Source of the DNA: Candidatus Iainarchaeum sp. | GTDB taxonomy: Archaea; Iainarchaeota; Iainarchaeia; Iainarchaeales; JAXPJC01 | NCBI GenBank assembly: GCA_016187745.1 | Contig: JACPJC010000005.1 | Span: 192,308 to 256,307 of the forward strand | Direction: 5' to 3' | Length of the DNA stretch: 64,000 bases | Part shown: positions 38,017 to 61,420 of the stretch, one piece after another | How the letters are laid out: each line of letters opens with the position of its first letter | How positions within the stretch are numbered: position 1 is the first letter of the stretch | Notes under the pieces: model-generated | What the model was told of the DNA's origin: nothing | Databases searched by the model: none | The model's input: only the letters and a program-made list of their open reading frames with translations | Made by a program: the position numbers and the translations under genes

Positions 38017-38403
38017 ATGAGCAGGAATTTTGATGATGTTGCAAAACTCATAGATAAAATGCTTTCCAAAAAAGGGGATGTTGCTGACAGGAGTTTATCG
38101 CTCAGCGCGGAAGCAGATAATTTAATTGAAGAGGCAAGGGAAGTCAAGCAGGAAACACTCAGGCGCAGGATTGATGCAAAGTGCTTGAAAGAAGAAATTG
38201 GTGATGTTCTCTGGGATGTCATCCTCCTGAGCAAGATTTCCGAAAAGAAAAAATTGTTTACGCTTGATGAGATGCTTAAAGCGCTGAAAATTAAAATAAA
38301 AAAACGCAACCCGCATGTTTTCGGGAAGGAAAAGGCGAATTCACTGGAAGAGGCGGTTGAAGCAAAGAGAAGGGCAAAAAAGGAGTGGAAAGCAGAACAA
38401 TAG
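38017..38403 (+). CDS. MazG-family nucleotide pyrophosphohydrolase
   Basis: EEARE..LKEEIGDVLW..K.KKRNPHVFG. Confidence 0.9.
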   Translation: MSRNFDDVAKLIDKMLSKKGDVADRSLSLSAEADNLIEEAREVKQETLRRRIDAKCLKEEIGDVLWDVILLSKISEKKKLFTLDEMLKALKIKIKKRNPHVFGKEKANSLEEAVEAKRRAKKEWKAEQ

Positions 38404-38456
38404 TGCATTTTCAAGCCCAGAATTAATCATAATCTATTTAATTACTCCGCAGTAAT

Positions 38457-39089
38457 ATGCAAATACAAGCAAAAGGGGATTGTCGTATGGGAATATACTC
38501 GCTAGTTCTGGTCCCTAATGCAGGGGATATAAGGCTTTTTGAAAAATTAATGGAAAGCGCTTCTGCCATTTCAGGCGCAAAGAAAAAGGGGATTCCCCCG
38601 CACATTTCACTAAGGGAAACATTTGAAACAAGGGATATTGATGGCCTGATGAACGAGATTTCCGGATTTGTAAATAAATTTTTTCCCATTAAAATAAGTT
38701 TTGATGGATATAAAATCCTGCACAGGGAATACGCAGTCCTGGAAGCAGTTAAAACAAGAAAACTTCAGGAGCTGCACAAAAAGACAGTAAAAGCAGTAGA
38801 CAAGTACAGGACAAATTATGTCCTGGAGAAATACAAAAAAGGCAAAGCCAGCCTTACCAAAAAACAAAAGGCCTATCTGAATCTGCACGGCTATCCTTAT
38901 TGCCTTTATTTTTATCTGCCCCACATGACATTGGTCTATGGGATTAACCCGAAGAAACTTGCAAAAGCCAAGGCGTTTCTGGGCAAGCAGAAAATCCCAA
39001 AAAGCATAAGGATTGGTGCGATTACGCTGCTCAAAAAGAGCAATGCCAGAAAGATGGAGTGGGCTAAAAAGCTCATCATATCAAAATAA
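38457..39089 (+). CDS. 2H phosphoesterase (2'-5' RNA ligase family)
   Basis: Two HxS/T motifs, PPHISL and LPHMTL; likely start is ATG 38487. Confidence 0.85.
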   Translation: MQIQAKGDCRMGIYSLVLVPNAGDIRLFEKLMESASAISGAKKKGIPPHISLRETFETRDIDGLMNEISGFVNKFFPIKISFDGYKILHREYAVLEAVKTRKLQELHKKTVKAVDKYRTNYVLEKYKKGKASLTKKQKAYLNLHGYPYCLYFYLPHMTLVYGINPKKLAKAKAFLGKQKIPKSIRIGAITLLKKSNARKMEWAKKLIISK

Positions 39090-39121
39090 CAAATAGCCTT
39101 GCTGTTGGTTTGTATATTATA

Positions 39122-40411
39122 TTATTTTCTAGGCTCATTCTCTATTAACCACTGCCATGCGGGTTTGACTATTATTTTTTTGTTAGATCTTGTTAGTTGT
39201 TGCTCCTGATATAACGTCAATATAATGCCCTGTTTTGCCTTTATCTGCCCCATAGCCTCTGTTAGGCCTTTAATTTCTCTGGATATGTTGCTTTCATTTA
39301 ATTCATAGCATGCTTGCATCGCTTGTTTATCATCAACAATTACGAAATCACATTCCGCATTAGTCTTTCCCTTGTAATAGTAAAACTCTTTTCCAAGCCT
39401 TTTCAATTGTATTGCTATAAGATTCTCCAGCAATACCCCTTTTTTTTCATTTATGTTCGGGGTGTTTTTCATCATTATTCCATTATCTATGCAATATACC
39501 TTCTTGGGATTTTTGTCAAATCGTTTAATTTTTCTTTCATATTTGTGCGTTGTAAATATGATATAGGACTCTTCTGCGCATCCGATATATTTTTGGATGG
39601 TATTAATACTTTTTATGCCGAAATTGTTTATTATCGACCTATAAGTTATTGGATTCGCAACATTTGCTATTAGGAATTTCAGCACCGCCTTAAGTTCAAC
39701 AGGTTTCCTTATATTATGCCTGCTTACTATGTCTTTCTGTATTATGTCATTTATTACCTGGGTCAGAACCGCAGTGTTTGAAAACACAACCAATTCAGGC
39801 ATGCCGCCATTTTCAAAATATTCCCTGAATTTTTTTGAGAAGAGGGCCCTTTCTTGCGTAGAATAAAGGCCTTTTTCAGGCAGCTTTATCTTGCATGCCC
39901 TGAGGAATTCTGTAAATGAAAAAGGATAAAGCTCTATGTCAACATGTCTTCCAGTAAGGTGTGTGCCAAGTTCCCTGCTCAGGAGATTTGCATTAGATCC
40001 CGTAATAAATACAGTGTAGCCTTCCCTCAATATCCTATTTATGAAAAGCTCCCAACCATTAATGTTTTGTATCTCATCAAAGAATACATTTCTCCTTTCT
40101 CCGAATAGCTCAATAAAGATTTCCATCAATGTCTGAAAATCTTCAGACTTGAAACCAGTTATTCTTTCATCATCAAAGTTAAAATAGTAAAAATTATTCT
40201 CAAATTTCGCCCTGATTATCTGCTTCAAAAGAGTGCTTTTTCCGCATCTCCTTAATCCCTTGATTACAAATGCCGAAGTTCCCTTATACGAGGATATTTC
40301 AGGAAAGACGCTTCTTGGTACAGAATCTTCCAGAGATTCAAATTCCCTCAACTGGTCCTTTATTACAGTCCCCAAGACTGACCTTGGAATCATAAAGATA
40401 ATATGCAACAA
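39122..40411 (-). CDS. AAA_14-type ATPase with DUF4143-like C-terminal domain
   Basis: GLRRCGKST, FFDEIQ, ITGSNA, LTGR, KVYCIDNG, LENL, ECDFV. Confidence 0.92.
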   Translation of the reverse strand: MLHIIFMIPRSVLGTVIKDQLREFESLEDSVPRSVFPEISSYKGTSAFVIKGLRRCGKSTLLKQIIRAKFENNFYYFNFDDERITGFKSEDFQTLMEIFIELFGERRNVFFDEIQNINGWELFINRILREGYTVFITGSNANLLSRELGTHLTGRHVDIELYPFSFTEFLRACKIKLPEKGLYSTQERALFSKKFREYFENGGMPELVVFSNTAVLTQVINDIIQKDIVSRHNIRKPVELKAVLKFLIANVANPITYRSIINNFGIKSINTIQKYIGCAEESYIIFTTHKYERKIKRFDKNPKKVYCIDNGIMMKNTPNINEKKGVLLENLIAIQLKRLGKEFYYYKGKTNAECDFVIVDDKQAMQACYELNESNISREIKGLTEAMGQIKAKQGIILTLYQEQQLTRSNKKIIVKPAWQWLIENEPRK

Positions 40412-40532
40412 AAGGTATATAAATATTGACTATTGTAATGAACAATAATGCCTAGTATTGTTCAATATAATGAACATTATTAAGAGGGCAGGAAGTTGTG
40501 GCGGATAAGGGAAATTTAAGCAGATTTGATTT

Positions 40533-40575
40533 TAAACCAAATGGTTGATTTTTGTTCAACCGCAGGTATATTAAT
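40533..40575 (+). promoter_or_regulatory. Palindromic operator-like site plus TATA-like box, copy A
   Basis: TAAACC-AAAT-GGTTGA-N7-TCAACC-GCAGG-TATATTAAT, 23 bp before ATG 40599. Confidence 0.8.
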
Positions 40576-40894
40576 CCTCAGAGCAGGGATTCTGAAAGAT
40601 GAGTGCAATGTATGAAATGACAAGAGTTCTTTCAGCAAAAACTGCAAAGCGCAGGACCCTTGCAGACCTTGCAGTTGCCATCCTGGGAAAGGAATGGCCT
40701 CTTTCCTTAAATGCCATACATCAAAGAATAACCAAAGGGCATGGAAAAGCCGCATCAATCCAGGCAACCCATAAGAGCCTTGCAAGGCTTGTAAAGCAGA
40801 ACATTCTTCTGAAGCAGAAAAAACGCTACAGATTGAGCCCGAAATGGCTTGAGCAAGTCAATAATTTCAGCATGCAGACAAAAGAGGCATATGC
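40533..40894 (+). repeat. ~360-bp direct repeat, copy 1 (operator, promoter and short wHTH gene)
   Basis: Matches 57263-57624; the offset is 16,730 bp at both ends. Confidence 0.95.
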
Positions 40895-40916
40895 AACCGG
40901 AGGCATTAAAAAATGA
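40599..40916 (+). CDS. Short 'EWPLS' winged-helix protein (DNA-binding domain only)
   Basis: ILGKEWPLS..SIQATHKSL..L..Y.L...W aligns with the N-termini of the five proteins at 52960-57225. Confidence 0.85.
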   Translation: MSAMYEMTRVLSAKTAKRRTLADLAVAILGKEWPLSLNAIHQRITKGHGKAASIQATHKSLARLVKQNILLKQKKRYRLSPKWLEQVNNFSMQTKEAYATGGIKK

Positions 40917-41093
40917 AGAGAGCCGCCCATTTGTTCTGCAATTCTCCAGCATTTATAATTACTTGCGGCAATAGTATAAATCGGGGTCGTGGGGGTTTGA
41001 GGCAGTTGATAGGGAGAAATGGGATTCTTGCGATATGTAGGTAAATCAATCAACATAATTTTACACTATAATTAATTCAAAAACAGCAAAAGA

Positions 41094-42695
41094 GTGAAAA
41101 AGAACATGCAATTTAATATGTCAAATAGTCAAATTTATGTGGCTGGTTCTCCAGCAGTAGGAAAAAACCTATTTTGCCCATTATTATCAGAAAAGACAAA
41201 CTCAAAATACATAAGATTTAATACCTTAATAAATAATAAGAATAAATTTCGTGTATCGGATTATATTGTTGAATACAAGAAAAATAACGTTTTTGCCTAT
41301 TATAATTATAAAACACTCCAAGTGGTTTACGGAAAAAAGAAGCTTAAACGAATAATGGATGAATATAAAAAACCTAAAAATTTGAAAACCTATCTTGCAA
41401 AGTCCTCAACAAAAAACACTACACTAAAAACAATTCTTAATACACTCATCCGTGAAGAATACTTAGTTAGTGGAACTGAAGGCCCGATTTTAAATAATGC
41501 GAAACTTGAAGAACGCAATCGAATCAACCCAAATTTATTACGAATTTTACTGACGTTTGATTGCAATCTAGAATGCAAATACTGTCAAATCAGAACCAAT
41601 CTTTTTAGTGAGTATAACAAACCAGTTACTAAAGAAGAAATCGACAAAGCCTTTGCATTGTTCAAGAAAAACAATAATGAATACAATATAATTTCTTTGT
41701 CTGGTGGAGAACCAATGCTCACTTTTGATTTAGTAAAGTATGTCGTAGAAAAATCCAAAAAAGAATTCAAACCTGGAAAATACCATATAGTATTGTCCTC
41801 TAATGGAACACTGATTACAGACTGCATCGCAGAGTATGTTGCCAAAAAAAACTTGTTGCCAATTATTTCCCTGGATGGTCAAGAAAAAGACAACAAAATG
41901 CGCATTTACCACAACGGCTTAGAATCCTACAAAAACATTCTTGCCGGAATTGAAACCCTAAAAAGACACAACTGCAAAAACATTGCCATTTCAATGACAA
42001 TCGGAGCTCACAACATAAAAAACATCAAAAAAACAATGCAAAACATTATCAACAAAATCAATCCAGTAAGCGTTGGCTACAATTTCGTTCACTATCCCTA
42101 CTTTAATAATCAACATTACTCTCTTCCTGATATTAATGATTACTCAAAAGCAGTCATTCACATTTTTACCGAACTTCGAAAGCACAAAATTTATGATGAG
42201 CAATTTTTCCGAAGACTCCAACCTTTTGTAGAACGAAAAATCCGAATAAAAGAATGCTCGGCACTCGGCGGCGCACTTAACCTCGTTCCTGGTGGCTTCA
42301 TTGGTCCATGCAAAACACTCTTGGCAAGCAAACACTTCTCCCAACCAATTGATAAAACAGAAAACTTAGGGGGTTCCAAGATTTTTACTGCATTTTCGAA
42401 CCGAAGCACATTAACATTGGATGAGTGTAAGAATTGTGTAGCCAGAACCATTTGTGGTGGAGGATGTACATTTGATTCCTTTGTAACGTATCACGATATT
42501 TTCCATGTAGACAAACGGAACTGCGAATATATCAGAAAAGTATTAGAATTTATGATTTGGGATCTATACAGACTAACTTCAAAGAAAAAAACTGATGTTT
42601 TGATTCCGACCAACAAGGATCGCAAAAAAATGTATGGGGGCATTAAACTTTTGAGTACCACCCTTACAGAATCCGTTGGCCATAAAATATATTGA
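41094..42695 (+). CDS. Radical SAM/SPASM-domain protein
   Basis: CNLECKYC, SGGEPML, SSNG, SLDG; SPASM-type ECSA..PC..CKNC..CGGGC..C. Confidence 0.93.
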   Translation: MKKNMQFNMSNSQIYVAGSPAVGKNLFCPLLSEKTNSKYIRFNTLINNKNKFRVSDYIVEYKKNNVFAYYNYKTLQVVYGKKKLKRIMDEYKKPKNLKTYLAKSSTKNTTLKTILNTLIREEYLVSGTEGPILNNAKLEERNRINPNLLRILLTFDCNLECKYCQIRTNLFSEYNKPVTKEEIDKAFALFKKNNNEYNIISLSGGEPMLTFDLVKYVVEKSKKEFKPGKYHIVLSSNGTLITDCIAEYVAKKNLLPIISLDGQEKDNKMRIYHNGLESYKNILAGIETLKRHNCKNIAISMTIGAHNIKNIKKTMQNIINKINPVSVGYNFVHYPYFNNQHYSLPDINDYSKAVIHIFTELRKHKIYDEQFFRRLQPFVERKIRIKECSALGGALNLVPGGFIGPCKTLLASKHFSQPIDKTENLGGSKIFTAFSNRSTLTLDECKNCVARTICGGGCTFDSFVTYHDIFHVDKRNCEYIRKVLEFMIWDLYRLTSKKKTDVLIPTNKDRKKMYGGIKLLSTTLTESVGHKIY

Positions 42696-42823
42696 AATAT
42701 ACTTCCCACATACCTTCTCCAACATATTGAGCGTCTTTCGTTCATGAATTATGATCTATTCAATAACACAACGAAAAACCTTTGTATTTATATTAATTTT
42801 CAAATAGAATAATATTGATAAAA

Positions 42824-44119
42824 ATGATTAATCCAAAACTTATTCGAAAAGAATTTGAGTTTGTCAAGAAAAACTTGGAAAGACGCAGAGACCAAAAAAC
42901 AATACAAATTCTGACAGACTGGTATGCTCAAGACAAAGAATTACTCCCACTTCAACAAGAAATAGATTTTTTGAGATCAAAAATAAATAAAATCAATCAA
43001 CAAATAATAGTAGAAAAACTAAGCGAAAAAGATATTAAACCACTTGTAGCCGAAGCAAAAATAACAGCCCAGGTTATTAAAGAAAAAGAAGTACGTCTTA
43101 GTGCCTTAAAAATAACTCATCGTGATTTACTGATGCGAATTCCAAACCTACTAGATGAATCGGTTCCAGTGGGAAATGATGGTAGCGAAAATCAAGTCAT
43201 AAAAAGAGTGGGGAGTATAATTGAACCGGATTTTGAACCGAAACATCACGGGCAATTAGCTACAGAACTTGGTGTAACCGATTTTGAAAGGGCCGTTAAC
43301 CTATCGGGTGCAGGTTTTTACATTTTGAAAGGAGACTTAGCACTCTTAAATTTAGCAATAGTAAACTACGCAGTGAACAAATTAGCAAAAAAAGGGTTTA
43401 CCTTTGTCATCACACCAGGCATGATAAAACGAAAACCCTATGAAGGAGTAATTAATCTTGCAGACTTCCAAGATATGTTATATAAGGTAGAGAAAGAAGA
43501 CTATTACCTCATTGCAACTGCCGAACATCCTTTAATCGCAATGCACATAGGCGAAACATTTGACTCTAAAGATTTACCTATAAAATACATGGGATACACA
43601 ACGAACTACAGAAAAGAAATTGGTGCCCACGGATTAGATGAAAGAGGGCTTTTTCGATTACACCAATTTGATAAAGTAGAACAAACAATTATTTGTGAAC
43701 CGGAAGAAAGCAAAAAATGGCATGAAGAATTATTAAAAAACGCTGAAGAAATAGTCAACGATTTTGAAATACCTTACCAGGTCATTTCAATTTGTGATGG
43801 AGACATTGGACTAGTCGCAGCTAAGAAGTATGATATTGAGGCATGGTCACCGCGTGAAAAAAAATACTTTGAAACTCATTCCTTATCAAATTGCACAACT
43901 TATCAATCGTTGCGATTAAATATTAAGTACAAAAACAGCAAAATAAAGGATTATGTTCACACCCTAAATGCAACTGCAGTTGCTGTACCTCGCATGCTAA
44001 GAGCAATCATCGAAAATTATCAAACAAAGGATGGAACAATAAAAATTCCAAAAGTGTTGCAACCAAATATGGGTGGAAAAAAAGAAATAATGAAGAGCCG
44101 TCCAGAAAGAATAAACTAG
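42824..44119 (+). CDS. serS: Seryl-tRNA synthetase
   Basis: IPNL, LIATAEHPL, YRKEIG..RGLFRLHQFDKVE, KKYDIEAW, SNCT.YQ..RL, HTLNATA..R. Confidence 0.96.
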   Translation: MINPKLIRKEFEFVKKNLERRRDQKTIQILTDWYAQDKELLPLQQEIDFLRSKINKINQQIIVEKLSEKDIKPLVAEAKITAQVIKEKEVRLSALKITHRDLLMRIPNLLDESVPVGNDGSENQVIKRVGSIIEPDFEPKHHGQLATELGVTDFERAVNLSGAGFYILKGDLALLNLAIVNYAVNKLAKKGFTFVITPGMIKRKPYEGVINLADFQDMLYKVEKEDYYLIATAEHPLIAMHIGETFDSKDLPIKYMGYTTNYRKEIGAHGLDERGLFRLHQFDKVEQTIICEPEESKKWHEELLKNAEEIVNDFEIPYQVISICDGDIGLVAAKKYDIEAWSPREKKYFETHSLSNCTTYQSLRLNIKYKNSKIKDYVHTLNATAVAVPRMLRAIIENYQTKDGTIKIPKVLQPNMGGKKEIMKSRPERIN

Positions 44120-45285
44120 TCGAACAACTTCTCCAAAAACTCTTCTGTAATTACATTATTTCCCCCGTTTGATTTCTTATACTTTTTAAAAGCTTGGAAA
44201 ATGTCATTGTCAGATTTCTTGATTCCAAATGACTTAAGTGTTTTAATGAAACAGCCTAAACTACTATTAATGGTAAGAGGAAAATCAGTCCGTTTCCCCC
44301 ATTGTTCGAAATTGACTACTTGAAAAGAAAATGGATCTTTTTTCATCCAGTCTTGGTGAATACCTGACGCGTGTTTTGACACCCACTCCCCAACAACCGG
44401 TGTGTGCAACGAAAGGGGGTTATATTTAATTATTTTTTTTAAAGCTTCAACAGCCAGCAAGGCATTTTCAGATTGAAAGTTTATTTTTTTATGAAAATAA
44501 TCCCTTCGGCTTAAAAGGCTGGCAATAACTGCTTCTTTTTGCGCGTTTCCCGCCCTCTCACCAATACCCGCAACAGTAACTTCTGCTTGTTTTGCACCAG
44601 CTTGAATTCCTAAAATAGTGTTTGCAACAGCTAATCCTAAATCATTGTGGGTATGAACACTTAATATTGTCCTGTCTCTCACTTTTTCTTTAACTCGTTT
44701 AACTAAAGAATAGTATTCTAACGGTAATGCAAAGCCAGGGCTGTCTGCCAAAGTAATAATTTTAGCCCCTGCTGATTCAGCAGCAAGTACAGTAAGCAAA
44801 AGGTATTTCCAATTTAATCGAACTGCATCAACCGCACAATATTGAATTTGTAAGCCGGGATAAAGTTCTTTAGCATACTTAATACTCTCTACAATTTGCT
44901 TTTTTGCCGACTTTATGTTCAGCCCTAATGTTTTATCTTTTTTTGTCGTGCTCCCTGCAATGAACAGATAAATTCTACCCCTTCCAGAAGAAATTGCCGG
45001 TTCAAGTGCCGCAACTGTTTTTTCAACATCCTCCAATTTACACCTTGAAATAGCAGAAATTACAACAGGCCACTTCTCAAGTGCGCAAGATTCGCTTATT
45101 TTTTTAACTGCTTTAAAATCTTGGCCGTGTGCGGCAGGAAATCCACATTCAATGACGTCCGCTTGTCTGTTCTTTCCAAGAAAACGCGCAAATTTTAGCT
45201 TTTGTTTCCAGTTTAAATTACCCTCTGCTGTTTGAACTCCATCACGCAAAGTTGTATCATACACAAATATCTTGTTCACACGCAT
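44116..45285 (-). CDS. DRE-TIM acyl-CoA condensing enzyme (isopropylmalate/homocitrate/citramalate synthase-like), no regulatory domain
   Basis: DTTLRDGVQ, HTHNDLGLAVAN, GIGERAGN, HASGIHQD; 389 aa. Confidence 0.9.
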   Translation of the reverse strand: MRVNKIFVYDTTLRDGVQTAEGNLNWKQKLKFARFLGKNRQADVIECGFPAAHGQDFKAVKKISESCALEKWPVVISAISRCKLEDVEKTVAALEPAISSGRGRIYLFIAGSTTKKDKTLGLNIKSAKKQIVESIKYAKELYPGLQIQYCAVDAVRLNWKYLLLTVLAAESAGAKIITLADSPGFALPLEYYSLVKRVKEKVRDRTILSVHTHNDLGLAVANTILGIQAGAKQAEVTVAGIGERAGNAQKEAVIASLLSRRDYFHKKINFQSENALLAVEALKKIIKYNPLSLHTPVVGEWVSKHASGIHQDWMKKDPFSFQVVNFEQWGKRTDFPLTINSSLGCFIKTLKSFGIKKSDNDIFQAFKKYKKSNGGNNVITEEFLEKLFD

Positions 45286-45533
45286 TTAGTTACCTTTTTT
45301 ATTCTCTTCTCTAGAAAGTTAATTATATCCCCGACTTTTTCAACTTCAATAATCTGTTTCAATGACATCTTAACTCCAAATTCCTTTTCAATAGCATCAA
45401 TGAGTTTTATGTGATTTAACGAATCCCACGATTGAAAATCATTTGGAGTCATTTTTGGAGAAATATTGATTGTTTTGTCTCCAAAAAAATCCCTAAAAAC
45501 TTTGTTCAATCGTATTGAGATATCACTTTTCAT
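45276..45533 (-). CDS. Acyl carrier protein
   Basis: WDSLNHIKLI..IEKEFGV; start moved to ATG 45533. Confidence 0.92.
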   Translation of the reverse strand: MKSDISIRLNKVFRDFFGDKTINISPKMTPNDFQSWDSLNHIKLIDAIEKEFGVKMSLKQIIEVEKVGDIINFLEKRIKKVTKCV

Positions 45534-47343
45534 TTGACTCACACACATGTACTTTCAACGGTTTAAAGTTTGAAACATTCAGCACCCAAACAGAATTGTT
45601 TTTTGTTGAACTCTTTCTTGAAAAACCTAATTTACCATACAAATCACGAACTATCTCATTTTTTTGAGTCTTGTTATACTTTCCAATAACAAACTTCTTC
45701 TTCAATCTAATGGCCTGTTTAATGACCCAATTAATTACAAACTTTTCGATGTCTCTAGAAAAAACTCTGCAACTCATTACCCAATTGAGAATAACCAATG
45801 CATCATTTTTCTGTTGTAGCACCATTGCGCTAATAGATCCTGAATCTCCAAATTTATCATTTAAATCAAAGACCGTAAACATTTTCAAATTATTGTCTTT
45901 TAATTCTGTTTCTGAAAACCTTTCCCCCGTGAGATTAAATTGATTGCATCGCTGAAACAGTTGTACGGCTCTTGGAGCATAAAAATCTTCATTATAATGA
46001 ATATTACAAACCATGGTAAGGCTATCTAAAAACTCCCCTAAATCTTTAAACTTTGATTTGTGTTCATTTCTCAAAGTATTTACTTTATAATATTCCGTTC
46101 TTCGAACGTCTTCTTCAGTAAACGAAGCCGACTCAAACAGATTTAGCTCTTGTAAAAATGTGATATACTCAACAGGGTCTTCCGGCAAGTCAGGAACACA
46201 GATCCCCCAACAGCAGCTTTCTACCAATTCTCGTTCAACAGGATCATCGTCAAAAAAAACCATTGAATCTATTTCGATGTTCAACTCTTTAGCTATTTTT
46301 TTTATGTTGGTTGCTTTATCTTGCCAATTTATTGCAAAAAATGAAATATCATTTTCTCTCAAAATCATATCTGGGTGTTCTCGGAAAACTTTTATTGCAT
46401 TCTCAAATGAATTCTTGCTACAAACAGCCAGTATTATCCCTCTCTGCTTCAAATTTTTCAAGTATTGTTGAATTCGTGTGAAAGCTTCTCCGAAAGCAGT
46501 TCCCCCTATTGCAATCTTTTCAATACCGTCCTCTGCCACTATACCGCCCCACACAAAATTATCCAAATCAAATACAACACATTTTTTTGTTTTTCCTTTT
46601 ACTGCCAAAATTATATCACAAATGTTTTTGGCAATATGGGCAGTAAAATCCAGGGAAGGATAACTTTTTGAGTAATGCCATATGCGATAGTCCGTCCAAT
46701 TTTTTCTCCCAAAATAAGAGGATAAAAAGTCTACGTCGTTTATGAAAACATTTTTGTAGGTTCTAGCGACGGATGAGATTTCTAAGTTTAATCGGATTAT
46801 TGCTTCTTTAAAGGAAAAAAGTTTGTTTTCGTAATTGCCAAACTCTCTCCAAGTATCTACTTCGAAATTGCTCTGAATAATACTGCATGTAATTCTTTCA
46901 TTAATTGAGTTCCAAAGTGAAATGATTTTTTTAGTTTCTTGTTTTACAAAAGTGTTAAACTCCCTTTTGTTAGCAAAAATAAAATTTTTTCTATTAAGCA
47001 ACAAGAGATTATTGTTAATCACAACTATCTGGGGTTTGAAAGTAATCAGCTTTGAATCACGGTTCAAAAATTCCTGTATCGTTGAGTTAAAATTACCAAA
47101 ATAGAATTTTGGCGAAAAACCATTGATCAATAAGAATGACTTTAGTGCGGGTTCAAATAGTTTAGAAGCACTATTGCCAAAAATAGCAATACGTATTATT
47201 GGCAACCCTTTCGAATCCATTTCTTCTGCAATTTTGCATATTTCATTGTATGACTGCATTCTATCACACGACCGAAAGTACTGCCTTACCACTATGGCTG
47301 GCTGGTGAACGGTTGCTTTTATCTCTTTCTTGAAATATTTCAT
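45523..47343 (-). CDS. FkbH-like HAD-IIIC phosphatase/glyceryl transferase
   Basis: VFDLDN..WGG, CSKN, INWQDK, FFDD.P.ER, LFQRCNQFNLT, DKFGDSG, MSCRV. Confidence 0.93.
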   Translation of the reverse strand: MKYFKKEIKATVHQPAIVVRQYFRSCDRMQSYNEICKIAEEMDSKGLPIIRIAIFGNSASKLFEPALKSFLLINGFSPKFYFGNFNSTIQEFLNRDSKLITFKPQIVVINNNLLLLNRKNFIFANKREFNTFVKQETKKIISLWNSINERITCSIIQSNFEVDTWREFGNYENKLFSFKEAIIRLNLEISSVARTYKNVFINDVDFLSSYFGRKNWTDYRIWHYSKSYPSLDFTAHIAKNICDIILAVKGKTKKCVVFDLDNFVWGGIVAEDGIEKIAIGGTAFGEAFTRIQQYLKNLKQRGIILAVCSKNSFENAIKVFREHPDMILRENDISFFAINWQDKATNIKKIAKELNIEIDSMVFFDDDPVERELVESCCWGICVPDLPEDPVEYITFLQELNLFESASFTEEDVRRTEYYKVNTLRNEHKSKFKDLGEFLDSLTMVCNIHYNEDFYAPRAVQLFQRCNQFNLTGERFSETELKDNNLKMFTVFDLNDKFGDSGSISAMVLQQKNDALVILNWVMSCRVFSRDIEKFVINWVIKQAIRLKKKFVIGKYNKTQKNEIVRDLYGKLGFSRKSSTKNNSVWVLNVSNFKPLKVHVCESNEK

Positions 47344-47540
47344 TGTTGTCGCGCGCAGCCGCCAAAGGTGGCCCTCTAGTGGCGGGATAGGAGACTAAGC
47401 TATGGATAAAATAAATGGCATAAGCTATAAAAAAGGGAATGATACAAGAAGCAACTGGATAATGTTCATTAAAACATTCGTTACTTGTGCCCTTAACGAT
47501 ACGGCCTTCGCTAATTGGCTCCGATTATTCTAAGCTCTTT

Positions 47541-47918
47541 TTAGGTTTCTTTATAATCTCGCTTCTTTGGGAGCATTATTGTCATAGCAATGGCAAAATC
47601 TGCTGAATGGGAAATGCTAGATAAAAAAGAAACACGGGGGAGTTTTTTTACTGAAATTAAAATTGCCCTGTCTTTTTTGGGTTCAATTCGGATGTCTTTT
47701 AATCCTAGTTTTACGGTATTCGCGCAAGCTTTTATTGTAGCTTCTTTGGCACAAAAGATTCCTGCAAAAGAAGCGGCTGTGTTTTTTCTTTTTTTAAGGC
47801 AGTACTTAATTTCATTTTCTAAAAATATTTTTTTAAAGAACATTTTATTTTCTTTGTAACTTTTGTTGAATCGGCTTATCTTTTCAATGTCAATTCCCAC
47901 CCCTTGCATTTTTTTCAC
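47541..47918 (-). CDS. acpS: Holo-ACP synthase (AcpS-type PPTase)
   Basis: GVGIDIE.ISRF, F.AKEA.IK, SISHS. Confidence 0.92.
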   Translation of the reverse strand: MKKMQGVGIDIEKISRFNKSYKENKMFFKKIFLENEIKYCLKKRKNTAASFAGIFCAKEATIKACANTVKLGLKDIRIEPKKDRAILISVKKLPRVSFLSSISHSADFAIAMTIMLPKKRDYKET

Positions 47919-48857
47919 CTAGATTATATCTTCTATCTTCCAATAAGCATATGTGTGCTGGTATTCTCGGGGGAAGTCTGCTTCTATTTCAGACAAAAAT
48001 TCTGTTAATGGAATGTTAGAGTTGACTAGAATATTCTGAGAAAATTGGTCTTTGGTCTCAAAGAGAAGTTTTGTGAAAAGGATTTTACGTTTTTTGTATA
48101 TTTCTACAGCCTTTTTTCTTCTATAATGCAATAGGTAGTGTAGTCGTAACCAGTCTTTTTCATTCTTAACATAATCGTTTAGATAAGTAGTTGCATAGCT
48201 TGGAAGGTCTCCCTTGAGGAGTTCAAAAGGAGTTAAAGGGTTGACACTTTTTTTAGAAAACGAGGGCTGTTTAAGTTTAATCAGTTTTGATATTACAAAG
48301 TGTCTCCATTTGAGGTTTGGGGGGGCACGATTTCGTTCTAGAAACCACACAATTTCCTGGTGATCTGCGCACATCATTCTGGAGAATTTACAATCAAATT
48401 GCGCTATCCATTGCAAAAATTTCTTTTCTTCTTGAATATATTCGTTTTTCAATACCAGAAATTTTTTTGAAGCTGTTTTTTTAATGTTCTTAAATCGCTT
48501 AGAAGGGTCATAAATTGGCGTAAGCTTTTGAATCCACCAAAAAATGTATGGGTTTACTATTGGGGTTTGAATATTTTCCAGAATATCAAAATAAGAGGAT
48601 TTGTCATCTTGGAAATGTAAACGAATTCCCCCTTTAACCAGAACTCTTGGGGAGAGCATCCTTGAAATTCTCTCTGCGTCTTCTGAGACTGCTGTTGTAT
48701 CTGAGCCAGAAATTATCAGGTCCAAATCAGAATATTGGTCAATTTGAATGTTCTTCGTTGAAGCCCCTAACAAAATCATATATTTGCCAGGATAATTTTT
48801 AGTCAATAGTTTGGCAAATTTTTTTGAAATTTTAATGCTATTTTTTGCAAAATCCAA
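47919..48857 (-). CDS. Pol-beta-superfamily nucleotidyltransferase-domain protein
   Basis: LLGAS...YSDLDLII (G[GS]..DxD pattern). Confidence 0.6.
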   Translation of the reverse strand: MDFAKNSIKISKKFAKLLTKNYPGKYMILLGASTKNIQIDQYSDLDLIISGSDTTAVSEDAERISRMLSPRVLVKGGIRLHFQDDKSSYFDILENIQTPIVNPYIFWWIQKLTPIYDPSKRFKNIKKTASKKFLVLKNEYIQEEKKFLQWIAQFDCKFSRMMCADHQEIVWFLERNRAPPNLKWRHFVISKLIKLKQPSFSKKSVNPLTPFELLKGDLPSYATTYLNDYVKNEKDWLRLHYLLHYRRKKAVEIYKKRKILFTKLLFETKDQFSQNILVNSNIPLTEFLSEIEADFPREYQHTYAYWKIEDII

Positions 48858-49461
48858 AAAGCAACACCACCTTTCTTAAGAACATTTGTTCATTTTTGGG
48901 GATAAGATTAATTAGAAAAACGTTCTGTTGTTTCAAAAGCTGCTTTTCAAATTTAAGGTAGTTTTTGATTCTTTTTCTAAGGATTTGCTTGTCATCATCG
49001 GCGCGTATGCCTAATTTCCCATGGCAACGGGGGCATTTCTTGTGAATCCTTTTATTATATGTTTCGAGACATCTTGGGCAAAACCTACGATTTAAGGCAT
49101 TCTTAAAAATTGTTTCTTTATCGTAGTACGTAATTACAAATATGATTCCGTCGCTGCAAAGCTTGGCTTGACTTGCGGTGCGAGGAAATCCATCTACAAT
49201 ACAAAATGCCGGGAGTTGTGAAAAGGCTTTTTTTACTTCATAGTTTGATGCTAAAGCCGCTCTTTCTTTTTTCTTCAATTGCAAGCTAAAGTTAATTAAT
49301 GGCAGTCCGGTTATTTTAGATAACAAAAAGGAGAAAAATGTTTTACCGATTGCTGGAGGTCCAGTGATATATATTCTCATAATTTTTACTCTTTTTGTAT
49401 AAAATAAATCAACATAACTTCTTTTAAAATACTGTTTTTTGGGTAATAATTTTTTGAACAT
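48838..49461 (-). CDS. Adenylate kinase-like P-loop nucleotide kinase
   Basis: GPPAIGKT, DGFPRT, Zn-lid CPRC..CPRC, RADD. Confidence 0.88.
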   Translation of the reverse strand: MFKKLLPKKQYFKRSYVDLFYTKRVKIMRIYITGPPAIGKTFFSFLLSKITGLPLINFSLQLKKKERAALASNYEVKKAFSQLPAFCIVDGFPRTASQAKLCSDGIIFVITYYDKETIFKNALNRRFCPRCLETYNKRIHKKCPRCHGKLGIRADDDKQILRKRIKNYLKFEKQLLKQQNVFLINLIPKNEQMFLRKVVLLFGFCKK

Positions 49462-49546
49462 GTTGCAATCTTGCAGTTCTCAAAGAAACTCAAATTAACC
49501 GGGATAATGCCCTGCTGCATTGGGCTTCATTGAAGTCTCTTTTTTC

Positions 49547-49678
49547 TCACCCAATCCTGAGATTGTCCGCTATCATGCATAGCAGTATCTCTTTGCGTTG
49601 TTGGGTTGCTTTGTGTAGGTAGAGAAACCCTCCATAGCGGCGTTTAAGTCTGCCGATTGCAGACTCGCTTATACTGCG
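49547..49678 (-). mobile_element. IS5-family (DDE) transposase C-terminal remnant
   Basis: Hand translation RSISESAIGRLKRRYG..QRKEILL..IADNL*; no intact N-terminus; possible terminal repeat GGCTTCATTGAAGTC at 49523-49537. Confidence 0.7.
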
Positions 49679-49831
49679 CCTTAGGCTTTTCGTTATGCAT
49701 ATTGCTAAGTTTTTTGCCTGACATATTTATCCTCTAATTTTATGAGCATACTCATATGCAACATTCTCTTTCCCTGTCATCCCCCCAGCTAATTTCTATC
49801 TGAATTTATCCCTTCTTGGTAAATCTTTTAC

Positions 49832-49932
49832 TAAAGAACCTTGGCGCTGAACGCTCCGCTTTTCAAAGCGGAGATGAAAGCTATTGTACTTATCATAATT
49901 AAACGCCTTGGCATTTATGCCAAGGTTCTTTA
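49832..49932 (-). repeat. ~100-nt structured element with 14-bp terminal inverted repeats, copy 1
   Basis: TAAAGAACCTTGGC...GCCAAGGTTCTTTA with two internal hairpins; homologous to 62625-62728. Confidence 0.85.
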
Positions 49933-50000
49933 CATTCCTGCAATTCATCGCAGAACTTGCAGTTGAACTGGTAGCTTGCATACTGCCCAAAACAGGCCAT
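49899..50000 (-). CDS. Cys-rich mini-protein, copy 1 (33 aa; C-terminus supplied by the structured element)
   Basis: MACFGQYASYQFNCKFCDELQEC..., paralogous to 63163-63312. Confidence 0.5.
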   Translation of the reverse strand: MACFGQYASYQFNCKFCDELQECKEPWHKCQGV

Positions 50001-50261
50001 TCCCTGCTTTTCCTTATGCGTGCCATGCCAAATTCATATTTGTGCCTCCTGCAGGCAAGGCGGTTAAGGCACATAATCTATCAGAACTTGCAAAATTTTT
50101 TGTAAATAAATTCGGGAAATCCTGACTTAGGCAATAAATGGCATCAGCCAGAGCCATGTTATGTATAATCATTTGCTTCCCGCCCCATCAAAAGGTTTTT
50201 ATATAATGGAATTATTATTAATTAAGCGGAATCTGGAATGATTTTCGGAAAGTGAAAAGCA

Positions 50262-51044
50262 ATGCCAAAGGACGGGATTGAAAGGGTTGAGACGGGGATA
50301 AAGGGCTTGGACAAGGCGCTTAATGGCGGCGTTCCCCGCGGCAATTTAGTTCTTATTTCAGGCGGAGCAGGCACTGGAAAGAGCACGCTCTCCCTGCAAT
50401 TCGTTTACAACGGCGCAAAGCTCTATGGCGAAAAAGGCGTTTATTTTACCACAGAGCAGAGGGAAGATGAGCTTAGAAAACAAGCCACAAGATTCGGCTG
50501 GGATCTGGCAGCATTGGAAAAGAAAGGGCTGCTAAAGCTGATTTTCCTTGATATTGTGCACAAGGTGAATTTCTATGAAACAATTGAAACAACCATCAGA
50601 ACCTTCAAGCCTGAGAGAGTAGTAGTGGATTCAATGGTAACGCTTGCAGACAGCATGAGCATAACAGACTTCAAGGACCTTACTGCAATCTCATTTGCAC
50701 AGCTCTTGGAAAACGTGGGACCGCAGGCGCAGGTGCAGCAAGCGGAGAAGCTCATAACGCGCAATATTCTTTACAATCTCTACAGCGCGCTGAAGCAGGC
50801 GAATGTAACAGCGCTTCTGGTTTCAGAGCTGCCTGAAAAGAGCGATTTCCTGAGCGCTGATGAGATAAGTGAATTTATAAGTGATGGAGTTATTTTGTTG
50901 CATTATTTAGGCATTGGCAGCGCAGAGTTCAGATCATTACAAATTAGGAAAATGCGCTACACAACACATGAGAAAGATTACATTTTGTATGACATCGCTA
51001 ATACAGGAATTGAAATTAAAAAAGAAGCAGAAATAAAAGTTTGA
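50262..51044 (+). CDS. KaiC/RAD55-like RecA-superfamily ATPase
   Basis: TGIKGLD, GGAGTGKS, RVVVDS, SDGVILL, RSLQIRKMR. Confidence 0.93.
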   Translation: MPKDGIERVETGIKGLDKALNGGVPRGNLVLISGGAGTGKSTLSLQFVYNGAKLYGEKGVYFTTEQREDELRKQATRFGWDLAALEKKGLLKLIFLDIVHKVNFYETIETTIRTFKPERVVVDSMVTLADSMSITDFKDLTAISFAQLLENVGPQAQVQQAEKLITRNILYNLYSALKQANVTALLVSELPEKSDFLSADEISEFISDGVILLHYLGIGSAEFRSLQIRKMRYTTHEKDYILYDIANTGIEIKKEAEIKV

Positions 51045-51088
51045 ATGAACGAATTAAAATTTCTCTCAATAAAAGATGGAGAAGAACA

Positions 51089-51703
51089 ATGGGTGTTTTT
51101 GGAATAGAATATGGGGAGATAGCAAAACTTTTAATTGGTGGGCAACTTACGTTTAAAGAAGGAAAAATAGAGCTACTTGGAGAAGGCGTTACTTTTGTTC
51201 CACTTACAGACCACATCGCAGAAATAAAATATTATGAAAATATGAATGCGGAGAATGGAATATATATTGGAGCCAAATATACTGGTCTTACTTGGAATGA
51301 AAAAATGTTAACTAAATATAAAACAAAAACACCTAGGGAGATTTTTGAGTGGGGAAATAAAGTTATGAATCTTGCAGGCTACGGTGAATTCAAAGTTTAT
51401 AAAGAAAATAAAGATAGGACTGAATGGATCTGGAGAATTTATAATAGCCAAATAGCTGAAGCATACCTCAAGAAGTATGGAAAAGCAAAATGGCCAGTTT
51501 GCCACAGGGTTAGGGGCTACTTCGCCGGAGCAGCAAGCTTTGTAGCTAGAGTTGACTTGGATGCTGTGGAAGTAAAATGCAAAGCAAAAGGGGACTCATA
51601 TTGTGAATTTGTCATTAAAAAAAATAAAAAATTTAATATAGCAACTACATTAGTAAAAAAACAACTTAAAGATATAGGTCAGGAGTCATATGCAAGAGAA
51701 TAA
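51089..51703 (+). CDS. V4R (4-vinyl reductase-like) ligand-binding domain protein
   Basis: AGYGEF, PVCH..RGYFAG, EVKCKAKGDSYCEF; start moved to ATG 51089. Confidence 0.9.
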   Translation: MGVFGIEYGEIAKLLIGGQLTFKEGKIELLGEGVTFVPLTDHIAEIKYYENMNAENGIYIGAKYTGLTWNEKMLTKYKTKTPREIFEWGNKVMNLAGYGEFKVYKENKDRTEWIWRIYNSQIAEAYLKKYGKAKWPVCHRVRGYFAGAASFVARVDLDAVEVKCKAKGDSYCEFVIKKNKKFNIATTLVKKQLKDIGQESYARE

Positions 51704-57225: not shown

Positions 57226-57262
57226 AATAAGTAAATATAGTGGAGGGGAAGCTTTTTTAAAT

Positions 57263-57305
57263 TCAACCATTTAGTTGATTTCTGTTCAACCGCAGGTATA
57301 TTAAT
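57263..57305 (+). promoter_or_regulatory. Palindromic operator-like site plus TATA-like box, copy B (divergent promoter region)
   Basis: TCAACC-ATTT-AGTTGA-N7-TCAACC-GCAGG-TATATTAAT, 23 bp before ATG 57329. Confidence 0.8.
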
Positions 57306-57624: not shown

Positions 57625-57643
57625 GTTGTCATGTAACAGCTAA
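57329..57643 (+). CDS. Short 'EWPLS' winged-helix protein, copy 2
   Basis: 7 substitutions versus 40599-40916 over the first 99 aa, then a different tail. Confidence 0.85.
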   Translation: MSAMYEMTRLLSAKTAKRKTLADLAVAILGREWPLSLNAIHQKITKGHGKAASIQATHKSLARLVRQNVLLKSKKRYRLSPKWLEQVNNFSMQTKEAYALSCNS

Positions 57644-61385: not shown

Positions 61386-61420
61386 GCTAAAAACAATTCC
61401 AAAATAATGCTTCTTAGCAT

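What the first reader, a model, noticed from the sequence alone, without database searches (positions are those of the whole stretch)
41094..49461. AT-rich biosynthetic-type island: rSAM/SPASM and SerRS converging on kinase, NTase, AcpS, FkbH, ACP and a LeuA-like synthase
Seen: eight tightly packed AT-rich genes bounded by a direct repeat and an IS remnant; the LeuA-like enzyme lacks the regulatory domain. Established: FkbH with ACP and a PPTase makes glyceryl-ACP. Unregulated DRE-TIM synthases occur in natural-product pathways such as FrbC. SerRS copies act as a resistance gene (albomycin AbmK) or a seryl donor (valanimycin VlmL). Inference: a pathway for an unknown, possibly nucleotide-linked metabolite, which is unexpected in a probable DPANN genome.
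Basis: partly seen in the sequence, partly recalled or inferred. Interest (0 to 1): 0.72.

Follow-up and report, generated by a model that had tools for sequence, protein, structure and literature searches.

The report
Carrier-protein gene cassette beside archaeal serS
A tiny DPANN archaeon carries an AT-rich 8.4-kb block in which its ordinary seryl-tRNA synthetase gene is flanked by a mobile radical-SAM gene and a bacterial-type FkbH/ACP cassette joined to a truncated LeuA-like synthase, so the synthetase is a neighbour of the cassette, not shown to be part of a pathway.

Summary
The eight genes, their tight packing and their AT-richness are real: GC3 is 0.27-0.33 against about 0.55 in core genes. 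The LeuA-like enzyme does lack the regulatory domain.

SerRS does not look pathway-specific. It scores as a canonical serS. Its nearest relatives are Iainarchaeota/DPANN proteins (58-64% identity). It sits in the same PHP-serS-V4R slot beside the exosome superoperon as in two relatives. Its codon usage is nevertheless island-like, which suggests it was imported or replaced in place together with the block.

The block is a mosaic:
- **Radical-SAM/SPASM gene:** a 77% identical copy lies in another DPANN contig, in a glycan-type operon with no serS or FkbH nearby.
- **FkbH-ACP pair:** all best relatives are bacterial. In 80 bacterial FkbH loci, ACP is present in 74-76 and MBOAT in 65. A LeuA-like gene occurs in 1 (weak) and AcpS in 1.

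The "NTase" is an ORFan with no detectable homologue. The kinase is only weakly adenylate-kinase-like. The "IS remnant" is unverified. The 363-bp repeat does not flank the block.

Verdict: an unusual accessory cassette in a variable hotspot; its product is unknown.

The parts
36954..37964 (-). PHP-domain gene; left anchor of the conserved backbone. It is directly adjacent to serS in the relatives.
   Evidence: Pfam PHP/PHP_C. 36% identical and collinear with the gene next to serS in L005 and L010. GC3 is 0.60.
38017..40411 (.). Accessory insert between PHP and serS: MazG-like gene, 2H phosphoesterase and an AAA_14/DUF4143 ATPase.
   Evidence: Pfam. The ATPase matches PADLOC candidate defence family PDC-S01 at 350 bits. 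These genes are absent from this slot in L005 and L010.
40532..40916 (+). Copy A of a 363-bp repeat, made of a promoter region plus a 105-aa wHTH gene (40599-40916). Copy B at 57262-57625 precedes a second radical-SAM cassette.
   Evidence: blastn gives 90% identity over 363 bp, confirmed by alignment. The Logan unitig breaks here.
41094..42695 (+). Radical-SAM/SPASM enzyme (gene caller start at 41106). It appears to be an independently mobile accessory gene.
   Evidence: Pfam Radical_SAM. NCBIfam peptide-maturase models match full length but below their cutoffs. The best PDB match is CteB, 5wgg. A copy 77% identical in protein and 78% in DNA lies in L091, in an operon of APH kinase, a GT2-B12-rSAM fusion and rSAM/SPASM, with no serS or FkbH beside it. 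GC3 is 0.33.
42815..44119 (+). serS, a canonical seryl-tRNA synthetase (ATG at 42824, 431 aa). It is the positional orthologue of serS in the relatives.
   Evidence: TIGR00414 scores 446 bits against a cutoff of 302. All best hits are DPANN/Iainarchaeota at 58-64% identity. It falls in a clade with 99% support. Synteny is conserved and divergence is congruent with core genes. However, GC3 is 0.27 and its codon usage (RSCU) correlates at r=-0.12 with core genes.
44116..45285 (-). Truncated LeuA-type (DRE-TIM) 2-alkylmalate synthase of 389 aa, with no regulatory domain.
   Evidence: PF00682 scores 198 bits, with a weak HCS_D2 match and no LeuA_dimer domain. All LeuA/CimA/HCS equivalog cutoffs are missed. 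The best relatives are genuine bacterial LeuA at only 33-40% identity. The top PDB matches are IPMS 3rmj and MAM synthase 6e1j. The motifs DTTLRDG, HTHND and SGIHQD are read directly from the sequence.
45276..45548 (-). Acyl carrier protein with a DSL serine motif (gene caller range 45276-45533).
   Evidence: PF00550 and NCBIfam ACP models match. It is 44% identical to the ACP next to a bacterial FkbH in L008. It overlaps both neighbouring genes.
45523..47343 (-). FkbH-like loader: FkbH_N domain, HAD-IIIC phosphatase domain and a C-terminal FkbH transferase domain. The called form is 578 aa, starting at 47259.
   Evidence: TIGR01686 scores 279 bits against a cutoff of 147, and TIGR01681 also matches. 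All columns invariant in 18 homologues are kept, including DLDN, CSKN, DD and SCR. Best relatives are 35-42% identical and all bacterial. The PDB match is BF1531, 3slr.
47541..47918 (-). AcpS-type 4'-phosphopantetheinyl transferase.
   Evidence: PF01648 scores 64 bits and TIGR00556 scores 70 bits against a cutoff of 45.
47919..48857 (-). ORFan protein (called as 286-295 aa).
   Evidence: No hit in Pfam, NCBIfam, PDB, PHROGs or PADLOC. Only a self-hit among 1.84 billion representative proteins. The single-sequence AlphaFold model is unusable, with pLDDT of 37.
48838..49461 (-). P-loop protein (GPPAIGKT) with an adenylate-kinase-like Zn-ribbon lid.
   Evidence: TIGR01351 scores 58 bits against a cutoff of 168. 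The PDB match to adenylate kinases has E=3e-7 and covers residues 88-186 only.
49480..50200 (.). Degenerate, non-coding right edge. It holds a multi-copy element of about 100 nt at 49826-49937. Transposase ancestry is not demonstrated.
   Evidence: Depth is doubled, and unitigs break here. Copies lie at 62620-62729 and 63186-63260. No Pfam or plasmid tblastn hit was found for the ORF fragments.
50262..51703 (+). KaiC-like ATPase and a V4R protein; right anchor of the backbone, rearranged relative to the relatives.
   Evidence: Pfam. KaiC is 48-50% and V4R 29-33% identical to the genes near serS in L005 and L010.

Best explanation
The AT-rich block is a mosaic that has built up in a variable hotspot around the housekeeping serS gene of a DPANN (Iainarchaeota-like) archaeon. 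It is not one biosynthetic island that recruited a SerRS.

(1) serS is the lineage's own type of SerRS and lies in the ancestral PHP-serS-V4R position. It serves translation. Its island-like codon usage suggests the serS DNA was imported or replaced in place together with neighbouring AT-rich DNA from a low-GC relative. This step is inferred.

(2) The radical-SAM/SPASM gene upstream is a separately mobile accessory gene shared with another DPANN lineage.

(3) Downstream lie two tight operons: kinase-like, ORFan and AcpS; then FkbH, ACP and the LeuA-like gene. Together they form a self-sufficient carrier-protein cassette of ultimately bacterial origin.

Likely mechanism, all inferred from family knowledge:
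- AcpS converts apo-ACP to holo-ACP.
- FkbH takes a glycolytic C3 unit (1,3-bisphosphoglycerate in characterised FkbH enzymes), dephosphorylates it and loads it as glyceryl-S-ACP.
- The unregulated LeuA-type enzyme performs a Claisen-type condensation of an acyl thioester with a 2-oxo acid, giving a hydroxy-di- or tri-carboxylic acid building block.
- The kinase-like protein and the ORFan tailor or activate the product.

The bacterial relatives of the FkbH-ACP pair feed an MBOAT that acylates surface glycans. That MBOAT is missing here and a LeuA-like synthase stands in its place, so the product is probably a small soluble hydroxy-acid conjugate of unknown structure.
For: - **SerRS type and position:** it reaches the serS equivalog score. 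All of the best 120 hits that carry a name are DPANN archaea. It lies in a 99%-supported clade with Ainarchaeum and Diapherotrites sequences.
- **Collinear synteny:** the order proteasome, SBDS, Rrp4/41/42, L37ae, RpoP, prefoldin, DHH, DUF1699, PHP, serS is shared with L005 and with L010, which is a 985-kb contig.
- **Congruent divergence:** SerRS is 60-63% identical between the window and the relatives, and 77% between the two relatives. Rrp41 shows the same pattern (66% and 85%), as do the other core genes.
- **Active site:** the window's SerRS has 1 private change at an otherwise invariant column, as do 13 of the 120 sequences in the alignment.
- **rSAM mobility:** its homologue in L091 is 77% identical, against 29-55% for core genes, and lies in a different operon.
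- **FkbH origin:** all 80 best loci from a one-genome-per-species collection are bacterial. Within 10 kb of them, ACP is found in 74-76 of 80, MBOAT in 65, a LeuA-like gene in 1 (27% identity) and AcpS in 1. rSAM, serS, the kinase and the ORFan are found in 0.
- **Intact enzymes:** catalytic motifs are kept in FkbH and in the LeuA-like enzyme.
- **Operon structure:** starts and stops overlap.
- **Fixed in the population:** the block is at the same depth as its flanks in four metagenomes, and no island-free joint was seen.
- **Hotspot character:** a PDC-S01 defence-type ATPase lies in the same gap.
Against: - serS shares the block's composition. Its GC3 of 0.27 is the lowest of the eight genes. 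Its codon usage (RSCU) correlates at r=0.70-0.73 with the rSAM gene and the cassette, but at r=-0.12 with core genes.
- serS overlaps the LeuA-like gene by 4 nt, so a shared history, and conceivably a shared function, is not excluded.
- serS copy number in the genome could not be checked.
- No homologous cluster exists to support any step of the proposed chemistry.
- LeuA-type enzymes are not known to me to use ACP thioesters.
- Two of the six cassette proteins have no assignable function.
- No condensing, ligating or export enzyme is present.
Confidence: 0.55

Rival explanations
1. The eight genes form one biosynthetic island, and SerRS is a functional member. It would be either a self-resistance copy against a seryl-adenylate-mimicking, nucleotide-linked product (AbmK-like) or a supplier of seryl-tRNA (VlmL-like).
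For: - serS has the same AT-rich composition and codon usage as the other seven genes.
- It overlaps the LeuA-like gene's stop by 4 nt.
- It sits on a long terminal branch of 0.7 against a median of 0.19.
- It carries T325D and T330L in the otherwise conserved CTGDIGT segment.
- A kinase-like protein and a protein with a loose NTase-like motif are present.
Against: - serS occupies the ancestral housekeeping slot.
- Its divergence is congruent with core genes.
- Its private substitution count is ordinary.
- The NTase call is unverified.
- Neither the rSAM gene's close homologue nor any of 80 FkbH loci has serS nearby.
- DPANN genomes of about 1 Mb normally hold a single serS; this is background knowledge and was not tested here.
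Confidence: 0.1
2. The cassette has no coherent pathway. FkbH-ACP, AcpS, the LeuA-like gene, the kinase-like gene and the ORFan would be unrelated or decaying horizontally acquired genes that merely lie together in a hotspot.
For: - The combination is unique, with LeuA-like and AcpS each found in only 1 of 80 FkbH loci.
- The usual MBOAT partner is missing.
- The ORFan has no relatives.
- There is a gap of 197-281 bp between the two sub-operons.
- No expression data exist.
Against: - All six reading frames are intact.
- Invariant catalytic residues of FkbH and LeuA-type enzymes are retained.
- FkbH/ACP/LeuA-like and kinase/ORFan/AcpS have overlapping or abutting starts and stops.
- A dedicated PPTase next to an ACP makes functional sense in an archaeon that otherwise has little use for one.
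- The block is fixed at full depth in four samples.
Confidence: 0.2
3. Assembly artefact. The AT-rich 9.1-kb unitig would belong to another, low-GC organism and would have been joined into this contig at shared repeats.
For: - The block is bounded by the two places where the assembly graph branches (40555-40769 and 49826-49937). Both are repeats.
- The composition differs sharply from the flanks.
Against: - Depth tracks the flanks across four samples. The block reads 48.5, 22.8, 43.1 and about 10; the flanks read 56, 24.6, 41.7 and 10.4.
- The unitig itself runs about 350 bp into normal-GC sequence on each side.
- Without the block, the backbone would lack serS in its conserved slot.
Confidence: 0.05

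Closest known systems
Bacterial FkbH-ACP-MBOAT cassettes in surface-glycan loci (uncharacterised; examples L002 Leptospiraceae, L008, L079 Flavobacterium; structure BF1531/3slr)
   Same: These are the closest relatives of both the FkbH (35-42% identity) and the ACP (44% identity). They have the same three-domain FkbH architecture with the ACP gene immediately downstream.
   Different: The window has no MBOAT or glycosyltransferase context. Instead it has a LeuA-type synthase, its own AcpS, a kinase-like protein and an ORFan, and the host is an archaeon.
Characterised FkbH-type glyceryl-ACP loaders (FkbH of FK520, OzmB, tetronate Tmn16/RkD-type systems)
   Same: The window's protein has the FkbH domain and HAD-IIIC domain with the DxDxT-type motif and the SCR cysteine. 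It also has a dedicated ACP. Loading of a C3 glycolytic unit is therefore expected.
   Different: There are no FkbG/I/J/K genes for methoxymalonyl-ACP, no FabH-like tetronate-forming enzyme, and no PKS or NRPS nearby.
Unregulated LeuA-family enzymes of specialised metabolism (methylthioalkylmalate synthase 6e1j; FrbC of FR-900098; NifV/AksA-type homocitrate synthases)
   Same: It has the catalytic DRE-TIM domain plus subdomain and lacks the C-terminal feedback domain. MAM synthase is among the two best PDB matches.
   Different: Identity to any relative is only 33-40%. The substrate is unknown, and pairing with FkbH/ACP has no precedent in the 80 loci examined or in the literature searched.
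BGC-borne second SerRS copies (albomycin AbmK; valanimycin VlmL)
   Same: A serS gene lies physically beside biosynthetic-type genes and shares their composition.
   Different: Here serS sits in the conserved housekeeping slot and is of the host lineage's own type. There is no evidence of a second copy, of a resistant active site, or of conserved clustering.

Membership tests
Housekeeping bacterial/archaeal-type SerRS (TIGR00414) | Full-length match above the curated equivalog cutoff | tested here: met
   446.3 bits against a cutoff of 301.65, covering residues 4-417.
Housekeeping bacterial/archaeal-type SerRS (TIGR00414) | Positional orthology and divergence congruent with host core genes | tested here: met
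   The PHP-serS-V4R slot is conserved in L005 and L010. The identity pattern matches Rrp41, Rrp42, PHP and the other core genes.
Housekeeping bacterial/archaeal-type SerRS (TIGR00414) | Only serS copy in the genome | not testable with these tools
BGC-associated accessory SerRS (AbmK/VlmL-like) | An extra copy in addition to the housekeeping gene, conserved within homologous clusters | tested here: not met
   No serS lies near any of the 80 FkbH loci or near the close rSAM homologue. The gene sits in the housekeeping slot. Copy number itself is untested.
FkbH family (TIGR01686) glyceryl-ACP loaders | FkbH domain and HAD-IIIC domain above cutoff, with invariant catalytic motifs | tested here: met
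   279.3 bits against 146.65, and 72 bits against 35.75. DLDN, CSKN, DD and SCR are all retained.
FkbH family (TIGR01686) glyceryl-ACP loaders | Dedicated ACP encoded adjacently | tested here: met
   The ACP gene overlaps the FkbH stop. The same pairing occurs in 74-76 of 80 relatives.
FkbH family (TIGR01686) glyceryl-ACP loaders | Converts 1,3-bisphosphoglycerate to glyceryl-S-ACP | not testable with these tools
   This needs an enzyme assay or intact-protein mass spectrometry.
Methoxymalonyl-ACP (FkbGHIJK) or tetronate cassettes | FkbK/FkbI dehydrogenases and FkbG O-methyltransferase, or a FabH-like tetronate synthase | tested here: not met
   None of these domains occurs in any ORF from 36 to 61 kb.
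2-isopropylmalate synthase LeuA (equivalog) | Score above the equivalog cutoff, with the C-terminal LeuA_dimer regulatory domain | tested here: not met
   The best score is 276 bits against a cutoff of 532. The match ends at profile position 380 of 516, and PF08502 is absent.
DRE-TIM metallolyase Claisen-condensing enzymes | HMGL-like barrel with the RDG, HxH and SGIHQD motifs | tested here: met
   PF00682 scores 197.6 bits. The motifs are read directly from the translation.
Radical-SAM/SPASM RiPP maturases | Full-length similarity including the CxxxCxxC and SPASM cysteines | tested here: met
   NCBIfam maturase models align across residues 147-494, and CteB 5wgg across 148-489. The cysteine motifs are visible. 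All equivalog cutoffs are missed.
Radical-SAM/SPASM RiPP maturases | Cognate precursor peptide nearby | tested here: inconclusive
   The only candidate is an unsupported 43-aa ORF at 40913-41044. The close homologue in L091 sits in a glycan-type operon without such an ORF.
Pol-beta-fold nucleotidyltransferase | Detectable homology to an NTase family or fold | tested here: not met
   No hit in any library or among 1.84 billion representative proteins. The structure model is unusable.
Adenylate kinase | Score above the adk cutoff across the core, NMP-binding and lid regions | tested here: not met
   58 bits against a cutoff of 168, and only residues 87-176 align.
Horizontally acquired genomic island | Atypical composition and absence from related genomes at the same site | tested here: met
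   GC3 is 0.27-0.33 against about 0.55. The cassette is absent from L005, L010 and L091.
Horizontally acquired genomic island | Integrase, flanking direct repeats or a tRNA target | tested here: not met
   There is no tRNA in the window, no integrase domain, and no flanking repeat beyond a single 11-mer.

The most novel reading that the evidence does not exclude
The whole 8.4-kb block, including its serS allele, was imported as one unit because the cassette makes a seryl-adenylate-like or serine-derived antimetabolite. The co-transferred SerRS, with CDGDIGL in place of the conserved CTGDIGT, would be the immunity determinant. This would be a self-protected toxin-metabolite module moving among DPANN archaea and displacing the resident housekeeping synthetase.
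Probability: 0.07. Interest if true: 0.8.

Novelty: new variant of a known kind. Interest (0 to 1): 0.4.

Why it matters
DPANN archaea are thought to have minimal biosynthetic capacity, and surveys report only a few BGCs in them, mostly RiPP-type (PMC12153355). A self-sufficient, bacterial-type phosphopantetheine carrier cassette with a previously unseen FkbH plus LeuA-like pairing would add a new piece of small-molecule or surface chemistry to an episymbiont lineage.

The case also shows a housekeeping aaRS gene that is positionally ancestral yet compositionally foreign. That is a possible example of in-place replacement of an essential gene inside an accessory-gene hotspot. The widespread bacterial FkbH-ACP-MBOAT cassette that surfaced as the closest relative appears uncharacterised in the literature I searched, and it is itself worth study.

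Tried and rejected
- **Whole-genome tools:** the serS count and the genome download were both closed.
- **First lookups:** an exact-protein lookup of the 606-aa FkbH form found nothing because of a start-codon difference; the 578-aa form worked. The first genome scan with a single FkbH protein found nothing. The alignment-based scan worked.
- **ORFan:** the HMMER search against 1.84 billion representatives, Pfam at E up to 10, PDB, PHROGs, PADLOC and a single-sequence AlphaFold model all gave nothing usable.
- **IS remnant:** Pfam on six ORF fragments and tblastn against plasmids found no hits. By eye the fragments faintly resemble IS1595-type ends, but I do not claim this.
- **Flanking direct repeats:** only one shared 11-mer, which is at chance level.
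- **Island-free population variant:** none seen. The one 'skip' joint (41246 to 51620) has a 20-nt side in a single run and is probably chance in AT-rich DNA.
- **Viral origin:** there are no viral relatives of serS or the rSAM gene, and only 30-33% identical giant-virus FkbH-like genes.
- **RNA runs:** none available.
- **Literature:** no paper in the searched library holds both 'FkbH' and 'isopropylmalate synthase'. Nothing relevant was found for FkbH with MBOAT, archaea or polysaccharide.
- **Resistance-type SerRS substitutions:** T325D is the only private change at an invariant column, and 13 of the 120 sequences in the alignment have one such change. I rejected this as evidence.

Full report
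**Observation**

ORF listing and HMM scans confirm eight genes at 41094-49461:
- a radical-SAM enzyme aligned end to end with SPASM peptide maturases, below every equivalog cutoff;
- a canonical SerRS (TIGR00414, 446 bits against a cutoff of 302);
- on the opposite strand, a 207-aa P-loop protein with an adenylate-kinase-like zinc lid;
- a 286-312-aa protein with no family;
- AcpS;
- a three-domain FkbH (TIGR01686, 279 bits against a cutoff of 147);
- an ACP;
- a 389-aa LeuA-type DRE-TIM synthase that stops where the regulatory domain would begin.

Genes overlap or abut, except for a 119-128-bp gap before serS and a 197-281-bp gap before FkbH. All eight have GC3 of 0.27-0.33, whereas nearly all other genes of the window have 0.45-0.62.

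An independently assembled 9111-bp Logan unitig covers 40745-49855. It therefore spans both junctions with normal-GC DNA. In four groundwater metagenomes the block's depth equals that of its flanks, and no island-free joint appears.

**What was not confirmed**

- **The 'NTase'.** It is an ORFan. Pfam (even at E up to 10), NCBIfam, PDB, PHROGs and PADLOC give nothing. An exhaustive HMMER search of 1.84 billion representative proteins returns only the protein itself. A single-sequence structure model was useless.
- **The 'IS remnant'.** The stretch at about 49480-50200 gave no transposase signal. What is there is a multi-copy element of about 100 nt at 49826-49937, with doubled depth and copies at 62620-62729 and 63186-63260.
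- **The 'direct repeat'.** It is a 363-bp, 90% identical duplication of a small wHTH gene with its upstream region. Copy A is at 40532-40895 and copy B at 57262-57625, in front of a second radical-SAM cassette. It does not flank the block. The two edges share only one 11-mer.

**Is SerRS part of a pathway?**

The best 120 SerRS relatives are 49-64% identical. All that carry a name are DPANN archaea: Ainarchaeum, Diapherotrites, Micrarchaeota, Altiarchaeota and Woesearchaeota. In a tree, the window's protein falls in a 99%-supported clade with the Ainarchaeum and Diapherotrites sequences, on a long terminal branch.

Two relatives, L005 and L010 (the latter a 985-kb contig), share a collinear backbone with the window. 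The order is proteasome alpha, SBDS, Rrp4, Rrp41, Rrp42, L37ae, RpoP, Pcc1/prefoldin, DHH, DUF1699, PHP, serS and V4R, with KaiC nearby. In the relatives PHP and serS are adjacent. In the window they are separated by 4.8 kb, holding a MazG-like gene, a 2H phosphoesterase, an AAA_14/DUF4143 ATPase, the wHTH gene and the rSAM gene. The ATPase matches PADLOC candidate defence family PDC-S01 at 350 bits. serS is followed by the six-gene cassette before KaiC-V4R.

SerRS identity is 60-63% between the window and the relatives, and 77% between the two relatives. The core neighbours show the same pattern: Rrp41 is 66% and 85%, and PHP is 36% and 57%. The window's SerRS differs from consensus at 7 of 100 highly conserved columns, within the control range of 1-8. 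Its one private change at an otherwise invariant column (T325D in CTGDIGT) is matched by 12 other sequences that each have one such change.

By type, position and divergence, this is the housekeeping serS.

**A loose end**

serS has the lowest GC3 of the block (0.27). Its codon usage (RSCU) correlates at r=0.70-0.73 with the rSAM gene and the cassette, but at r=-0.12 with core genes. A long-resident gene should not look like this.

The simplest reconciliation is that the serS DNA came in with adjacent AT-rich DNA from a low-GC relative and replaced the resident copy within this hotspot. L010's serS, for comparison, has GC3 of 0.19.

**The block is a mosaic**

The rSAM/SPASM protein has one close homologue, in JGI contig Ga0209541_10000659 (L091). 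It is 77% identical in protein and 78% in DNA, while the core genes of that contig are only 29-55% identical to the window's. There it is the last gene of an operon made of an APH-type kinase, a GT2-B12-rSAM fusion and the rSAM/SPASM gene. An HD protein, an S51 peptidase and an NAD-dependent epimerase lie beside it, between DHH and DUF1699/PHP. There is no serS or FkbH next to it. So this gene moves on its own among DPANN lineages. In that setting it looks glycan- or small-molecule-directed rather than RiPP-directed. No convincing precursor peptide is present here. Only a 43-aa ORF at 40913-41044 could be considered.

**The cassette**

FkbH's best relatives are 35-42% identical. Every named hit, and all 80 best loci from a one-genome-per-species collection, are bacterial. 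Within 10 kb of those 80 FkbH genes I counted the following:

| Neighbour | Loci out of 80 |
|---|---|
| ACP homologue | 74-76 |
| MBOAT | 65 |
| LeuA-like gene | 1 (27% identity over 157 aa; a different HMGL subfamily next to a cytidylyltransferase) |
| AcpS | 1 |
| rSAM, serS, kinase-like, ORFan | 0 |

Examples inspected in detail lie in glycan loci. The window has no MBOAT.

The LeuA-like protein has no close relative at all. The best are genuine LeuA enzymes of leucine operons at 33-40% identity. The best solved structures are N. meningitidis IPMS and the regulatory-domain-less plant MAM synthase. FkbH keeps every residue invariant in 18 homologues, including DLDN, CSKN, DD and SCR. The LeuA-like protein keeps DTTLRDG, HTHND and SGIHQD.

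**Mechanism (inferred)**

- AcpS primes the ACP.
- FkbH loads a glycolysis-derived C3 hydroxyacyl unit on it, as characterised FkbH enzymes do with 1,3-bisphosphoglycerate.
- The feedback-free LeuA-type enzyme condenses an acyl thioester with a 2-oxo acid.
- The kinase-like protein and the ORFan tailor or activate the product.

Only the domain identities and motif conservation are shown. Every chemical step is inference, and the link between glyceryl-ACP and the LeuA-like enzyme is the weakest step.

**Rivals**

- The accessory-SerRS reading keeps about 0.1, because of the shared composition and the 4-nt overlap.
- 'No coherent pathway' keeps about 0.2.
- An assembly chimera is unlikely (0.05), given depth covariation across four samples and unitigs that cross both junctions.

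**Novelty and interest**

BGCs are rare but not unknown in DPANN (PMC12153355). I found no paper linking FkbH with isopropylmalate synthase, MBOAT cassettes or archaea. This is a new variant of a known kind: an FkbH/ACP loader cassette in an unprecedented partnership and host. The more striking claim about SerRS is not supported. Interest is moderate.

Noticed in passing
window 40532-40895 and 57262-57625: A 363-bp repeat, 90% identical, holds a promoter region plus a wHTH gene of about 105 aa. Each copy sits directly upstream of a different AT-rich radical-SAM cassette: rSAM/SPASM-serS, and the B12-rSAM-methyltransferase fusion with a B3/4 gene. The first 44-52 nt also recur at 61420-61463 and 62742-62793.
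   Followed up: partly
L091 2581-10169 (JGI contig Ga0209541_10000659): The rSAM/SPASM homologue (77% protein identity) lies in an operon with an APH-type kinase and a GT2-B12-binding-radical-SAM fusion. An HD protein, an S51 peptidase and an NAD-dependent epimerase lie beside it. This indicates recent exchange of the gene between DPANN lineages and a likely glycan or small-molecule substrate.
   Followed up: partly
window 39122-40411 (-): The AAA_14/DUF4143 ATPase matches PADLOC candidate defence family PDC-S01 at 350 bits. The PHP-serS gap therefore looks like a defence and accessory hotspot.
   Followed up: no
window 49826-49937; copies 62620-62729 and 63186-63260: A multi-copy element of about 100 nt has doubled assembly depth. 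It causes unitig breaks in all four metagenomes, and several different sequences join it there (loose ends).
   Followed up: partly
window 40913-41044 (+): A 43-aa ORF with three Cys residues has its ATG overlapping the stop of the wHTH gene, just upstream of the rSAM/SPASM gene. It is a possible precursor peptide, but it has no support and is not conserved in L091.
   Followed up: no
window 42824-44119 (SerRS residues 323-331): The segment reads CDGDIGL where 119 relatives have CTGDIGT (T325D, T330L). The count of private changes at invariant columns is not unusual.
   Followed up: yes
window 51041-52682 (+): The V4R gene and a terpene-synthase-like gene have the lowest GC3 in the window (0.24-0.25). 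The change is sharp at the 4-nt overlap with the normal-GC KaiC gene.
   Followed up: no
L002, L008, L079 and 65 of 80 bacterial loci L011-L090: An FkbH-ACP-MBOAT cassette, often with MaoC dehydratase and SDR genes, is widespread in bacterial surface-glycan loci. I found no paper describing it in the searched library.
   Followed up: partly
window 50186-50336: A minor variant contig with 6 SNPs has depth 3.7-8.4 against 49-61. It appears in two of the four metagenomes and indicates a low-abundance sister strain.
   Followed up: no
L005 18225-20561: In a relative, class I LysRS is fused to a B3/4 domain. The window's free-standing B3/4 protein (60225-61079) is 31% identical to that domain.
   Followed up: no
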